Source: Escherichia coli (lineage in GTDB: Bacteria; Pseudomonadota; Gammaproteobacteria; Enterobacterales; Enterobacteriaceae). Taken from it: DNA of 64,000 nucleotides. Made by a program: the position numbers. The stretch lies in NCBI RefSeq assembly GCF_030013205.1, contig NZ_CP122648.1. One strand, written 5' to 3'. Below are positions 57,038-63,000 of this stretch, in pieces; within the stretch, counting starts at the first letter, position 1; each line of letters begins with the position of its first letter.

Positions 57038-60000
57038 TTAATTCGTAAAACGTGCTACCGATCACATTAAGAAATCAGCGCTTATTTTTTCGCTCCCGGG
57101 CATTACGCAATGAGCAGCGAACTCAGGCATACATCAAGAATAGAGAGGGATTGCAGTTTGCAGCAATCCCTCTTTGCAGACCTTTAATCCGTTGACTATA
57201 GGCGCTAACATAGCGCCTCATTTTTTTGCGGGTGATGATATGCGTGTGTTACTGGCACCGATGGAGGGAGTGCTTGACTCTCTGGTGCGTGAATTGCTGA
57301 CCGAAGTTAACGACTACGATCTGTGCATCACCGAGTTTGTCCGCGTGGTGGATCAACTGCTGCCAATAAAAGTCTTTCATCGCATTTGCCCTGAGCTACA
57401 AAATGCCAGCCGGACACCTTCCGGTACGCTGGTGCGCGTGCAGTTGTTAGGTCAGTTCCCACAATGGCTGGCAAAGAACGCCGCCCGTGCGGTGGAGTTA
57501 GGTTCCTGGGGCGTGGATCTCAATTGCGGCTGCCCGTCGAAAACGGTTAACGGTAGCGGCGGTGGGGCGACGTTACTCAAAGAGCCTGAACTCATCTATC
57601 AGGGTGCAAAAGCGATGCGTGAAGCTGTACCGGCGCATTTGCCCGTCAGCGTGAAAGTGCGTCTGGGATGGGACAGCGGTGAGAAGAAATTTGAAATCGC
57701 CGATGCGGTTCAACAGGCTGGTGCTACAGAGCTGGTGGTGCATGGGCGGACGAAAGAGCAGGGTTACCGCGCGGAGCATATTGACTGGCAGGCGATTGGC
57801 GAGATTCGCCAGCGGCTGAATATTCCGGTGATTGCCAACGGTGAAATCTGGGACTGGCAGAGTGCGCAACAATGCATGACGATCAGCGGATGCGACGCAG
57901 TGATGATTGGTCGCGGGGCGCTCAATATTCCCAACCTGAGCCGGGTGGTAAAATATAACGAACCGCGAATGCCGTGGCCGGAGGTAGTTGCTTTGCTGCA
58001 AAAATATACCCGTCTGGAAAAGCAGGGCGATACCGGGTTATATCACGTTGCGCGGATTAAACAGTGGTTGAGTTATTTGCGTAAAGAATACGATGAAGCA
58101 ACGGAATTATTTCAGCATGTTCGGGTGTTGAATAATTCCCCTGATATTGCAAGGACTATTCAGGCAATTGATATCGAGAAACTCTAAAAAACCATAGTGA
58201 TGTTTTTTGACAATGTGTTAGCTCTTTATCAATAGGCCGCACGGTTGTTTGGTGGCGTCAAAATCGCCGAGGCGTTCCCCGAAGGCCGGGGCAGCCCACA
58301 TGGATGTGGGCTGAGGGCGCGTTTTACAGGGATGTTACCTCGCGCCCGACCCGGTAGCCGTAAGGGATAAGCCGAGGGCACCGCGCAGCGGCGATTTTGT
58401 TCGCCAGAGCCCGGGGGTGCAGGGAGCGGCGGCGATTGGTCGCCCCCTGCGCGCTCCTTGCGCCAGTGATTATATGAAGCAATGCACATGACAGGAGCGC
58501 AACAGGATGAGAGACTGAAATATTCTCGTTATTTTCGGATCTGATGACATTAATTAATTTTAAAATATCATCTTAAATACGCCAGTCACCACCAGTAGCC
58601 CAATCAGGAAAATAATCAATACAGCCCAGAGTATAATTTTCATTGGCGTTCCTTTATTTGTGAGTGCTGAATAAGTATAGGAAAAAACGAAGCCCTTTGC
58701 CGTTATCCATAAACGATTAAGATAAATCGGAAGATATCATTCACTTGGTGTATATTTTTCTGGATATGTCGTTTTATTGCTACTGATGTATTGCCACGCG
58801 AAACTAAAAAATATATCGCAACACACGGTAATCTCCGCGCACCTTTTCTTACCTGATTATTCCCCCATGAATCGTGATTCTTTTTATCCAGCCATCGCCT
58901 GTTTTCCGCTGTTACTGATGCTGGCCGGGTGTGCGCCTATGCATGAAACCCGCCAGGCGTTAAGCCAGCAAACGCCCGCTGCACAAGTTGACACCGTATT
59001 ACCCACGGCGCTGAAAAATGGTTGGCCAGACAGCCAATGGTGGCTGGAGTATCACGATAATCAACTCACTTCCTTAATTAATAATGCACTACAGAGCGCA
59101 CCGGATATGCAGGTGGCTGAACAGCGCATTCAGCTAGCTGAAGCCCAGGCGAAGGCAGTTGCCACTCAGGATGGTCCGCAGCTCGACTTTTCTGCGGATA
59201 TGGAGCGGCAAAAAATGTCGGCAGAAGGGTTAATGGGGCCGTTTGCTTTGAACGATCCGGCCGCAGGTACGACCGGTCCGTGGTACACCAACGGTACTTT
59301 TGGCTTAACGGCGGGCTGGCATCTCGATATCTGGGGAAAGAATCGGGCGGAGGTTACTGCTCGCCTGGGTACGGTTAAAGCACGGGCGGCGGAACGCGAG
59401 CAAACCCGCCAATTGCTGGCTGGCAGCGTAGCCCGTCTGTACTGGGAGTGGCAAACCCAGGCGGCGTTAAACACGGTCTTGCAGCAAATCGAAAAAGAGC
59501 AGAACACCATTATCGCCACCGATCGCCAGCTATATCAGAACGGGATTACTTCTTCAGTTGAAGGTGTGGAAACCGATATTAATGCCAGCAAAACCCGGCA
59601 GCAGCTCAACGATGTCGCGGGGAAAATGAAAATTATTGAGGCACGGTTAAGTGCGCTCACCAACCACCAGACAAAGTCATTGAAGCTTAAAGCGGTCGCG
59701 TTGCCGAAAGTGGCAAGCCAGCTTCCTGATGAACTGGGGTACTCCTTACTGGCCCGGCGGGCAGATTTGCAGGCGGCGCACTGGTACGTTGAGTCATCGC
59801 TAAGCACCATTGATGCGGCAAAAGCGGCATTTTATCCTGACATCAACCTGATGGCCTTTCTGCAACAGGATGCGTTGCACTTAAGCGATCTGTTCCGTCA
59901 TTCCGCGCAGCAAATGGGCGTTACGGCAGGCCTGACGCTACCCATTTTCGATAGTGGTCGTCTTAACGCCAACCTCGATATCGCAAAAGCCGAAAGCAAC

Positions 60001-63000
60001 TTGTCTATCGCCAGCTACAACAAAGCGGTGGTTGAAGCGGTGAATGACGTGGCGCGGGCAGCCAGTCAGGTTCAGACACTGGCGGAGAAAAACCAGCATC
60101 AGGCGCAAATTGAGCGCGATGCCTTGCGTGTAGTAGGTCTTGCGCAGGCGCGCTTTAACGCGGGCATCATTGCGGGTTCCCGCGTCAGCGAAGCCAGAAT
60201 CCCCGCGCTGCGTGAGCGGGCCAATGGCCTGTTATTGCAAGGGCAGTGGCTGGATGCCTCCATTCAACTCACTGGTGCGTTGGGCGGGGGTTACAAACGC
60301 TGATGATATGTGCCTTCTATACTTAATGTTTATTCAGCGTTAAGTGGAGAACTCGATGGCACAGGTCGCGATAATTACCGCCTCCGATTCGGGGATCGGC
60401 AAAGAGTGCGCGTTATTACTGGCGCAGCAGGGGTTTGATATTGGCATTACCTGGCACTCTGATGAAGAAGGGGCAAAAGATACCGCGCGTGAGGTGGTTA
60501 GCCACGGCGTACGTGCGGAGATCGTGCAACTGGATCTCGGCAATCTACCAGAAGGTGTGCAGGCGCTGGAGAAACTCATTCATCGGCTGGGACGCATCGA
60601 TGTGCTGGTGAATAATGCGGGCGCAATGACCAAAGCGCCGTTTCTTGATATGGCTTTTGATGAGTGGCGCAAGATTTTTACCGTTGATGTCGATGGCGCA
60701 TTTTTATGCTCGCAAATTGCGGCCCGACAGATGGTGAAACAAGGGCAGGGCGGTCGCATCATCAACATTACGTCGGTGCATGAACATACGCCGTTGCCGG
60801 GTGCCAGCGCCTACACAGCCGCTAAACATGCGCTCGGCGGGTTAACCAAAGCGATGGCGCTGGAGCTGGTCAGGCATAAGATTTTGGTGAACGCAGTCGC
60901 GCCTGGGGCGATCGCCACGCCAATGAACGGCATGGATGACAGCGACGTGAAGCCCGATGCGGAGCCTTCGATTCCTCTGCGGCGTTTTGGCGCAACGCAT
61001 GAGATTGCCAGTCTGGTGGCCTGGCTGTGCTCTGAAGGTGCGAATTACACCACCGGGCAGTCGTTGATAGTGGATGGCGGCTTTATGCTGGCGAATCCGC
61101 AGTTCAACCCAGAATAGCGCAGTGAGGTGCGTGGTTATTTCAATGGGTAATATTTGGGTAGGCATGATAAGACGCACAAGCGTCGCATCAGGCATGGTGT
61201 ACCGGATGTGGATGTGGCGCGAACGCCTTATCCGAGGCAATGGTTTTACGCCTGATCATGCGGCTTTTTCTTCCCGCGCCGTTTCAGCCACCAGCGCACG
61301 CCTACCACCAGAACCACGACCAGAATCAACCAGACCCAGTGCTTCAAATGCTGGTCGAGATTATGCAACCACGGCGCAATCACCTGACCACCAGCGTAAC
61401 CGATAGTGGTAAAAATCAACGCCCAGGCAAATGCGCCGAGGATATTCAGTGGCAGAAAGATTTTCGGCGGCAGCTGGCTGGCACCAATCAGCGTCGGGCC
61501 AATCACCCGAAAGCCATACATAAAACGCGTACCAATGACAAACAGATACGGATGGCGTTGGATCAGTTTCTGCGCCCGCTCAATTTTATCCTGATGCTTA
61601 GAGAAACGGCGTAATAGCTTGCCGCCAAACCGCCGCCCGCACAGATAAAGCACCTGGTCGCCAATCATGCCGCCAAGCGCCACAGAAAGTACCACCAGCG
61701 GGAACTTTAATAGCCCCTGATGTGCTGCAACGCCTCCCAGCAAAGTCACGGTTTCACCTTCCGCCAGGCTACCGATCACCAGCGCGGCATAACCATATTG
61801 TGAGATGAGTGTATTGAGATCCATAGGCCAGTCTGTCTCCCTTTAGTTGCCTGTAAGCATACACCCTGTGAATAGTTCACGCTGAAAAAGGACGTACATC
61901 AGACGGTGCAAATTACATGAACGAACAAAAAATAATCACAAGCTGACTTATACTTGAACTGTCAGGTTCATGAACTCACAACAAGGGGGCGGTATGAGCC
62001 ATGTCTGGGGACTGTTTTCCCATCCCGATCGTGAAATGCAGGTGATTAATCGCGAAAACGAAACGATTTCTTACCATTACACCCACCACGTTTTGCTGAT
62101 GGCGGCGATTCCGGTGATTTGCGCCTTCATTGGCACTACACAGATTGGCTGGAATTTTGGCGATGGCACTATCCTGAAGTTATCCTGGTTTACCGGACTG
62201 GCGCTGGCTGTCTTGTTTTATGGCGTTATGCTGGCTGGGGTCGCGGTGATGGGGCGGGTCATCTGGTGGATGGCGCGCAATTATCCGCAACGTCCATCAC
62301 TTGCGCACTGCATGGTCTTCGCGGGCTACGTTGCAACTCCGCTGTTTTTAAGCGGTCTGGTGGCGCTTTATCCACTGGTCTGGTTGTGTGCGCTGGTCGG
62401 CACGGTGGCGCTGTTTTACACCGGCTACCTGCTTTATCTCGGTATTCCGAGCTTCCTGAATATCAACAAAGAGGAAGGCCTTAGCTTCTCCAGTTCGACG
62501 CTGGCGATTGGCGTGCTGGTGCTGGAAGTGCTGCTCGCCCTTACCGTTATACTATGGGGCTACGGTTATCGTTTGTTCTAGAAAGTACTTTTGTGTTGCA
62601 TTGCTGGCGTAAATGTCAGCAATGCAGCATTTCCTCACGATTCTCCTTTGACGATCGCACTTTTTGCTCGTTATGATGGCGTCGCTAGCCTCAGTAAATC
62701 CTTACTCCGGCGGTGCGCAACCCGTGCGCGTGAACCACTATCTGAATGCTCATCATGCCGAAATTTCGAGTTTCTTTATTTAGCCTGGCCCTGATGCTGG
62801 CTGTGCCTTTGGCACCGCAGGCCGTTGCGAAAACGGCAGCCGCTACCACCGCTTCACAGCCGGAAATTGCCTCCGGTAGCGCGATGATTGTTGATCTGAA
62901 TACCAACAAAGTGATCTATTCGAACCACCCGGATCTGGTGCGTCCGATTGCGTCTATCAGCAAATTAATGACCGCGATGGTCGTGCTGGATGCGCGACTG

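What the first reader, a model, noticed from the sequence alone, without database searches (positions are those of the whole stretch)
58867..60303. mdtQ is an intact ORF here, whereas it is a pseudogene in K-12
A single uninterrupted 478-codon frame encodes an outer-membrane efflux lipoprotein with signal peptide and lipobox LAGC. In K-12 this gene is annotated as a disrupted pseudogene (yohG/yohH fragments). Together with the IS1 isoform and the integrase at proL, this indicates a non-K-12 lineage that may retain a functional outer-membrane channel.
Basis: partly seen in the sequence, partly recalled or inferred. Interest (0 to 1): 0.3.

Follow-up and report, generated by a model that had tools for sequence, protein, structure and literature searches.

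The report
Intact mdtQ outer-membrane efflux channel gene
This pig-derived E. coli carries an intact copy of mdtQ, an outer-membrane efflux-channel gene that is broken by a one-base deletion in laboratory K-12, but the intact form is the norm across E. coli and this is already documented, so the finding is correct and ordinary.

Summary
Window 58867-60303 (+) is one uninterrupted 478-codon ORF. It matches the NCBIfam MdtQ equivalog end to end (1022.8 bits, cut-off 650) and has the lipobox L19-A20-G21-C22.

The window is E. coli ETEC4079 (NZ_CP122643.1), a porcine ETEC, where RefSeq already annotates mdtQ as intact.

The K-12 lesion is a single 1-bp deletion in an A5 tract (window 59014-59018, codons 50-51). 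It leaves a 69-aa stub and a remainder with no signal peptide.

- The frameshift allele is exact in 355 of 5426 complete genomes. All 60 evenly sampled carriers are K-12 laboratory derivatives or carry K-12-identical DNA.
- The intact tract is exact in 4864 genomes.
- dN/dS between the more distant alleles is 0.04-0.11, so the gene is under purifying selection.
- Other lineages lose it sporadically through unrelated lesions.

A 2025 review already states that mdtQ is core in E. coli despite its pseudogene label. Novelty: already known.

One lead goes beyond the finding. The nearest relatives of MdtQ sit in operons with FUSC/AaeB-type pumps, never RND pumps. Orphan MdtQ may therefore serve AaeAB or YdhJK, which have no channel gene of their own.

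The parts
58867..60303 (+). mdtQ coding sequence, 478 aa, intact
   Evidence: ORF confirmed. NCBIfam NF008524 MdtQ equivalog scores 1022.8 bits over 1-478/478. RefSeq annotates it as WP_063086619.1 in ETEC4079, K_EC180 and CFSAN018748.
58867..58932 (+). Lipoprotein signal peptide ending in the lipobox L-A-G-C (58921-58932). Cys22 is the predicted lipidation site and Ala23 at +2 predicts outer-membrane sorting.
   Evidence: Read directly from the sequence. Cys22 is invariant and +2 is Ala in 11 of 14 homologues. The sorting rule comes from established knowledge of the Lol pathway.
59014..59018 (+). A5 tract (codons K50-N51), the site of the K-12 one-base deletion (A5 to A4)
   Evidence: Pairwise alignment to MG1655 b2139 shows this as the only indel among 26 differences. 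The A4 allele is exact in 355 genomes and the A5 allele in 4864 of 5426.
59071..59664 (+). First OEP repeat (residues 69-266). Pfam reports a second repeat, but its coordinates were not printed.
   Evidence: Pfam PF02321 OEP, E 1.8e-29, 2 stretches.
60356..61117 (+). yohF, an SDR oxidoreductase 52 bp downstream on the same strand, possibly co-transcribed with mdtQ
   Evidence: Pfam adh_short_C2, E 1.4e-59. No terminator-like site lies between the two genes. A 60%-identical MdtQ homologue from a metagenome is also followed by the start of an SDR gene. Co-transcription is inferred.
58560..58643 (-). yohP, a small membrane protein gene divergent from mdtQ. The 223-bp gap between them (58644-58866) must hold the mdtQ promoter.
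   Evidence: Pfam YohP, E 7.5e-13, and RefSeq annotation. The only promoter-like match lies at 58544-58571, partly inside yohP, and is no better than chance.

Best explanation
The feature is the wild-type, intact allele of mdtQ (formerly yohG). It encodes a NodT/OprM-type outer-membrane factor lipoprotein.

Shown here:
- It is a full-length member of the MdtQ equivalog family, in the conserved dusC-yohP-mdtQ-yohF context.
- It is under purifying selection across E. coli.
- The K-12 pseudogene differs by one deleted A in an A5 tract at codons 50-51. That deletion separates the signal peptide and lipobox from the rest of the protein. It is confined to the K-12 laboratory lineage.

Inferred from homology:
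- The precursor is exported by Sec, lipidated at Cys22 and sorted to the outer membrane by Lol, because residue +2 is Ala.
- It trimerises into a TolC-like beta-barrel plus periplasmic alpha-helical tunnel.
- It docks onto a periplasmic adaptor and an inner-membrane transporter encoded elsewhere, forming a tripartite exporter.

The partner is unknown. Gene neighbourhoods of its nearest relatives point to FUSC/AaeB-type or MFS pumps with AaeA/EmrA-type adaptors, and not to RND pumps.
For: - Intact ORF.
- Family matches: NF008524 at 1022.8 bits against a cut-off of 650, and TIGR01845 NodT subfamily at 270.5 against 210. Two Pfam OEP repeats.
- Sequence homology to solved OMFs over residues 51-477: VceC 1yc9 at E 3.4e-39, plus OprM, SilC, CusC and CmeC.
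- Synteny is identical to K-12 and other E. coli.
- The single -1 indel against MG1655 gives a 69-aa stub, and the first restart codon is at Met81.
- A4 allele in 355 genomes and A5 allele in 4864 of 5426. Of 60 evenly sampled A4 carriers, all are K-12 derivatives except EcN_Sk, whose 2.1-kb segment is 100% identical to K-12.
- dN/dS is 0.04-0.11 for 14 of the 15 allele pairs. K-12 differs from the intact H5 allele by 4 synonymous and 0 nonsynonymous changes.
- Cys22 is invariant, and the private substitutions lie at variable columns.
- Partner class: of 8 nearest outgroup representatives (35-42% identity), 5 lie directly downstream of a FUSC pump. Three of those 5 have the full YtcA, AaeA-type adaptor, FUSC, OMF layout. 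One lies with an MFS pump and an EmrA-type adaptor, none with RND, and 2 are uninformative.
Against: - No expression evidence was obtained. No Shine-Dalgarno-like motif precedes the ATG. The only promoter-like match is no better than shuffled sequence. The review says the promoter is unconfirmed.
- The gene is dispensable. K-12 lives without it, and unrelated lesions occur in 99COLEC, S43 and MRE162, with a C-terminal frameshift in EC21Z-063. Independent truncations are reported in Salmonella Typhi and Paratyphi A.
- No adaptor or pump gene is adjacent, so the tripartite role is by analogy only.
- The only published phenotype came from deleting yohG in a K-12 background where the gene is already frameshifted (the strain is recalled from memory), so it does not establish function.
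Confidence: 0.93

Rival explanations
1. The ORF is intact but effectively silent. On this reading it is a cryptic gene with no significant expression, and its intactness has no phenotypic consequence in this strain.
For: No Shine-Dalgarno-like sequence lies upstream of the ATG. There is no above-chance promoter match. The promoter is not confirmed experimentally and the function is not elucidated. The gene is repeatedly lost in several lineages without obvious cost.
Against: dN/dS of 0.04-0.11 across phylogroups, together with retention of the intact A5 tract in at least 4864 of 5426 genomes, requires selection on the protein and hence expression under some natural condition. The lipobox Cys is invariant.
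Confidence: 0.1
2. The A tract is a slippage-prone contingency switch, so the gene toggles on and off between and within lineages and is not simply broken in K-12.
For: The lesion lies in a homopolymer. A second indel, in EC21Z-063, lies in a G run.
Against: Five A's is too short for high-frequency phase variation (established knowledge). The A4 allele was found only on the K-12 allelic background. The one apparent exception, EcN_Sk, is K-12-identical DNA. Other lineages lose the gene by unrelated mechanisms: a 73-bp deletion, an IS1-associated deletion and a truncation.
Confidence: 0.02
3. The difference from K-12 is an artefact, that is, a sequencing or annotation error in either the K-12 reference or this assembly.
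For: Homopolymer indels are typical sequencing errors. The single difference is 1 bp.
Against: A4 is reproduced in 355 independent assemblies of K-12 derivatives made with many technologies, including MG1655 and W3110. A5 is exact in 4864 genomes. The window allele is byte-identical in several independently sequenced porcine ETEC genomes.
Confidence: 0.01
4. MdtQ is a back-up TolC that serves the RND pumps (AcrAB and others), and does not serve FUSC or MFS pumps.
For: It scores on RND-associated OMF models (AdeK at 116 bits, OprM-type structures at E 1e-22). It was named 'multidrug resistance' from susceptibility data.
Against: Its best non-self model is MdtP (349.8 bits), the OMF of the FUSC-type MdtNO system. 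None of 6 informative neighbourhoods of its nearest relatives contains an RND gene. tolC mutants of E. coli are hypersusceptible despite MdtQ, although that work is mostly in K-12, where MdtQ is broken (established knowledge).
Confidence: 0.1

Closest known systems
MdtQ (YohG) of E. coli, e.g. O157:H7 Q8X659 and RefSeq WP_063086619.1 (NCBIfam NF008524)
   Same: It is the same gene. The protein is identical to WP_063086619.1, has the same synteny, gives a full-length equivalog match, and is about 99% identical to other E. coli alleles.
   Different: Nothing of substance. There are three lineage-private conservative substitutions (A44V, N77S, P276A) at variable positions.
K-12 mdtQ pseudogene (b2139; yohG)
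   Same: Same locus and neighbours, with 98.3% nucleotide identity (25 SNPs, 5 of them nonsynonymous).
   Different: K-12 lacks one A of the A5 tract at codons 50-51. That yields a 69-aa stub and a signal-less remainder.
MdtP (YjcP), the OMF of the ytcA-mdtNOP operon
   Same: It is the closest paralogous family (349.8 bits). Both are NodT-type lipoprotein OMFs of similar length. The nearest relatives of MdtQ have the MdtNOP-type operon layout.
   Different: The score is below the MdtP cut-off of 597. mdtQ stands alone, with no adaptor or pump gene beside it.
VceC of Vibrio cholerae (PDB 1yc9)
   Same: It is the best solved-structure homologue, E 3.4e-39 over residues 51-477. VceC works with an MFS pump and an EmrA-type adaptor (established knowledge).
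   Different: It is a distant homologue, in a different genus and operon context.
TolC
   Different: Only 12% identity according to the review. The score is 51 bits against a TolC-model cut-off of 225. TolC is not a lipoprotein.

Membership tests
MdtQ equivalog (NCBIfam NF008524) | Full-length score above the curated cut-off | tested here: met
   1022.8 bits against a cut-off of 650, aligned 1-478 of 478.
MdtQ equivalog (NCBIfam NF008524) | Orthologous chromosomal position (dusC-yohP-mdtQ-yohF-yohD) | tested here: met
   The gene order is the same in the window, MG1655, W3110, CFSAN018748, K_EC180 and ETEC4079.
Outer membrane factor family, NodT-type lipoprotein subfamily (TIGR01845; Pfam OEP) | Subfamily model above its cut-off and two tandem OEP repeats | tested here: met
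   TIGR01845 scores 270.5 against 210.05. PF02321 matches in 2 stretches, E 1.8e-29.
Outer membrane factor family, NodT-type lipoprotein subfamily (TIGR01845; Pfam OEP) | N-terminal lipoprotein signal with a lipobox cysteine | tested here: met
   L19-A20-G21-C22 follows a hydrophobic stretch. The Cys is invariant in 14 of 14 aligned homologues.
Outer membrane factor family, NodT-type lipoprotein subfamily (TIGR01845; Pfam OEP) | Homology over the whole mature chain to OMFs of solved TolC-like structure | tested here: met
Outer membrane factor family, NodT-type lipoprotein subfamily (TIGR01845; Pfam OEP) | Trimeric channel in the outer membrane that couples to an adaptor and an inner-membrane pump and exports substrates | not testable with these tools
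   This needs biochemistry or genetics. No adaptor or pump gene is adjacent.
MdtP family (NF007390) | Score above the curated cut-off | tested here: not met
   349.8 bits against a cut-off of 597. It is a related family, but this protein is not MdtP.
TolC family (TIGR01844) | Score above the curated cut-off | tested here: not met
   51.3 bits against a cut-off of 225.15.
K-12-type mdtQ pseudogene allele | A4 in place of A5 at codons 50-51 | tested here: not met
   The window has A5. It is therefore the intact allele.

The most novel reading that the evidence does not exclude
MdtQ is the missing outer-membrane channel for one or both of the E. coli FUSC-type exporters that have an adaptor but no channel gene of their own: AaeXAB (aromatic carboxylic acid efflux) and YdhIJK. 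This partnership would have stayed invisible because nearly all E. coli efflux genetics is done in K-12, where mdtQ is frameshifted. Wild strains such as this ETEC would then have a complete tripartite FUSC-type exporter that K-12 lacks.
Probability: 0.2. Interest if true: 0.45.

Novelty: already known. Interest (0 to 1): 0.08.

Why it matters
As stated, the finding matters little. It re-derives a documented fact: mdtQ is a K-12-specific pseudogene of a core E. coli gene.

Its practical value is as a reminder that K-12 is a natural null for one of the four E. coli outer-membrane efflux channels. Efflux phenotypes, TolC-dependence measurements and 'orphan pump' conclusions drawn from K-12 may therefore not transfer to clinical or veterinary isolates.

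The neighbourhood analysis adds a cheap, testable suggestion about which pumps (AaeAB, YdhJK) MdtQ might serve.

Tried and rejected
- Rfam scan of 57000-62000 found no RNA family.
- The promoter and terminator scan gave counts no higher than in shuffled sequence, so no regulatory claim is made.
- The repeat scan of the dusC-mdtQ intergenic region found only short GC-rich repeats, consistent with the published TRIP1c element.
- An attempt to read Sulavik et al. 2001 (PMC90435) for the strain background failed because the paper is not held. The W3110 background is therefore from memory.
- EcN_Sk was considered as a possible independent A4 event in a B2 strain. It was rejected because its segment is 100% identical to K-12 over 2102 bp.
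- The window was first assumed to be CFSAN018748 and then K_EC180. Both were rejected on colinearity. ETEC4079 was identified through the unique bcr deletion.
- Structure prediction and the large word-indexed protein search were not run. Sequence homology to solved OMFs and the published AlphaFold comparison already settle the fold, and the cost was not justified for an ordinary finding.
- A literature search for any link between mdtQ and aaeB or ydhK found none.
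Full report
**Observation.** Window 58867-60303 on the + strand is a single open frame of 478 codons plus a stop. The mechanical ORF list begins it 30 codons earlier, at a TTG. The NCBIfam MdtQ equivalog model NF008524 aligns residues 1-478 to model positions 1-478 starting from the ATG at 58867. It scores 1022.8 bits against a cut-off of 650. Pfam finds two OEP repeats. Residues 19-22 are L-A-G-C (window 58921-58932), preceded by a hydrophobic stretch and followed by Ala. Cys22 is invariant in an alignment with 14 homologues of 34-60% identity.

**Source of the window.** The first 10 kb and last 7 kb of the window are byte-identical to E. coli ETEC4079 chromosome NZ_CP122643.1, positions 1823725-1887724 (pig faeces, Belgium). 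RefSeq annotates the gene there as intact mdtQ, protein WP_063086619.1. Related porcine strains K_EC180 and CFSAN018748 carry the same protein. The gene order dusC, yohP, mdtQ, yohF, yohD is the same as in K-12.

**The K-12 lesion.**
- MG1655 b2139 is annotated as a pseudogene of 1436 nt. W3110 and other K-12 records say 'frameshifted'.
- Alignment with the window gene shows 25 substitutions (20 synonymous, 5 nonsynonymous) and one indel.
- The indel is the loss of one A from the A5 tract at window 59014-59018, which spans codons K50-N51.
- In K-12 the frame therefore runs for 50 native residues and 19 out-of-frame residues and then stops.
- The remaining 436-codon open frame has no start codon before the equivalent of Met81 and no signal peptide.
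- By inference, K-12 cannot deliver this protein to the outer membrane.

**Which state is unusual.**
- A 61-mer carrying A4 is an exact match in 355 of 5426 complete E. coli genomes. The A5 62-mer is exact in 4864.
- An even sample of 60 of the 355 A4 genomes consists of MG1655, W3110-type, BW25113, DH5alpha, DH1, C600/EC600, J53, MC4100, JM109, TG1, S17-1 and similar laboratory strains.
- The single apparent exception is EcN_Sk, a genome labelled as Nissle. It is 100% identical to K-12 over 2102 bp around the gene, so it holds K-12 DNA and is not an independent event.
- The repaired K-12 allele differs from the intact allele of strain H5 by only four synonymous changes. The lesion is therefore recent, and no further decay has accumulated.
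- Intact mdtQ is thus the species norm and K-12 is the exception.

**Selection and sporadic loss.** Nei-Gojobori dN/dS is 0.04-0.11 for 14 of the 15 pairs among six alleles from diverse strains. The remaining pair, K-12 against H5, has no nonsynonymous differences. This is clear purifying selection. The three amino-acid changes private to the window lineage (A44V, N77S, P276A) fall at columns that vary among homologues.

The gene is nevertheless dispensable, because unrelated lesions occur elsewhere:

| Strain | Lesion |
|---|---|
| 99COLEC | 73-bp deletion between short GGTGGCTG repeats |
| EC21Z-063 | One extra G in a G run; replaces the last residues and extends the protein to 486 aa |
| S43 | Truncation after about 708 bp, next to foreign DNA |
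| MRE162 | mdtQ and yohF replaced by an IS1 |

Independent truncations are also reported in Salmonella Typhi and Paratyphi A (PMC9241588).

**What it is and how it probably works.**
- By sequence it is a NodT/OprM-type outer-membrane factor (TIGR01845, 270.5 bits against a cut-off of 210).
- It is homologous over the whole mature chain to solved channels: VceC at E 3.4e-39, plus OprM, SilC, CusC, CmeC, MtrE, OprN and OprJ.
- The inferred mechanism is the standard one for this family. The precursor is exported and lipidated at Cys22, then sorted to the outer membrane. It forms a trimeric beta-barrel with an alpha-helical tunnel and docks to a periplasmic adaptor and an inner-membrane transporter.
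- None of this was or could be tested here.
- Expression signals are weak. No Shine-Dalgarno-like motif precedes the ATG, and promoter-like matches are at chance level.
- yohF follows after 52 bp with no terminator-like site between the genes. A 60%-identical metagenomic homologue is also followed by the start of an SDR gene. Co-transcription is therefore plausible but unproven.

**Partner class.** mdtQ has no adaptor or pump gene beside it. An exhaustive profile search places MdtQ proper in a single 50%-identity cluster. The next full-length relatives are only 35-42% identical. The neighbourhoods of eight of those relatives were as follows:

| Context | Count |
|---|---|
| Directly downstream of a FUSC (AaeB/MdtO-type) pump; three have the full YtcA, AaeA-type adaptor, FUSC, OMF layout of mdtNOP | 5 |
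| Between an MFS pump and an EmrA-type adaptor | 1 |
| Too short a contig to tell | 2 |
| Next to an RND pump | 0 |

This fits MdtP being the best non-self family model (349.8 bits). K-12 annotation and Pfam confirm that aaeXAB and ydhIJK are FUSC pump plus adaptor units with no channel gene nearby. The hypothesis that MdtQ serves one of them is an inference from a small sample. No paper in the library links them.

**Comparison with the literature, and novelty.**
- The 2025 TolC review (PMC11762307) states that mdtQ stands alone and is of unknown function.
- Other papers simply call it the mdtQ pseudogene of K-12 (PMC12719787).
- The finding is therefore already known, and RefSeq already annotates this very gene as intact.
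- The reported increased susceptibility of yohG null mutants (Sulavik 2001, cited) was, from my memory of that paper, obtained in W3110, which carries the frameshift. That phenotype is thus unexplained and does not prove function.

**Verdict.** The finding is ordinary and already known. Interest is low (0.08). The only forward-looking element is the FUSC-pump partner hypothesis, with a probability of about 0.2.

Noticed in passing
window 7382-8517 (deletion junction at about 7631/7632): bcr, the MFS multidrug/bicyclomycin efflux pump, carries a 55-bp deletion that splits it into ORFs of 84 and 294 aa. It is intact in K-12 and in the closest relatives. Among 5426 complete genomes the deletion junction occurs only in ETEC4079, where RefSeq marks bcr 'frameshifted'. 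This strain therefore has the opposite state to K-12 at two efflux genes: mdtQ is intact and bcr is broken.
   Followed up: yes
window 27514-28281: An IS1 copy (insA 27566-27841, insB 27760-28263) is inserted between fruA and psuK. The identical insertion is shared by seven porcine ETEC genomes (K_EC180, ETEC1748, 4067, 4069, 4070, 4071, 4079) and is absent from CFSAN018748.
   Followed up: partly
window 1-930: A P4-type integrase gene (- strand, from window 644 running off the left end) lies next to tRNA-Pro(GGG) at 854-930. In ETEC4079 it heads an island with a RepA-family helicase and with Icd-like, PerC and ProQ/FinO-like genes, which looks like a phage satellite. The relatives K_EC180 and CFSAN018748 have yejO at this position instead.
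   Followed up: partly
window about 58231-58503: The GC-rich repeat region between dusC and yohP corresponds by position to the TRIP1c repeat described in PMC10888264 as a substrate for chromosomal rearrangements. In EcN_Sk this stretch matches K-12 only in inverted orientation, at 88% identity.
   Followed up: partly
L014 (NZ_CP172017.1, EcN_Sk) 1160-3261: A genome labelled as a Nissle 1917 derivative carries a yohP-mdtQ-yohF segment 100% identical to K-12, including the K-12 frameshift. A genuine B2 strain (M1/5) is only 97.5% identical there. This suggests a hybrid, an engineered strain or a misassembly.
   Followed up: partly
L030 (W3110) 2658-4093; literature: The susceptibility phenotype that gave mdtQ its 'multidrug' name came from deleting yohG in a K-12 background (W3110, from memory), where the gene is already frameshifted. 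The phenotype may reflect polarity on yohF or measurement noise. It remains unexplained.
   Followed up: partly
window 58840-58866: No Shine-Dalgarno-like purine run precedes the mdtQ start codon (the sequence is ...cttacctgattattccccc ATG). This suggests weak or unusual translation initiation.
   Followed up: no
window 30509-31776 and 33696-34963: psuT and nupX are paralogous nucleoside transporter genes, 80% identical at the DNA level. Both are intact here, whereas nupX is frameshifted and yeiL has an internal stop in CFSAN018748. sanA is intact here but frameshifted in K_EC180.
   Followed up: partly
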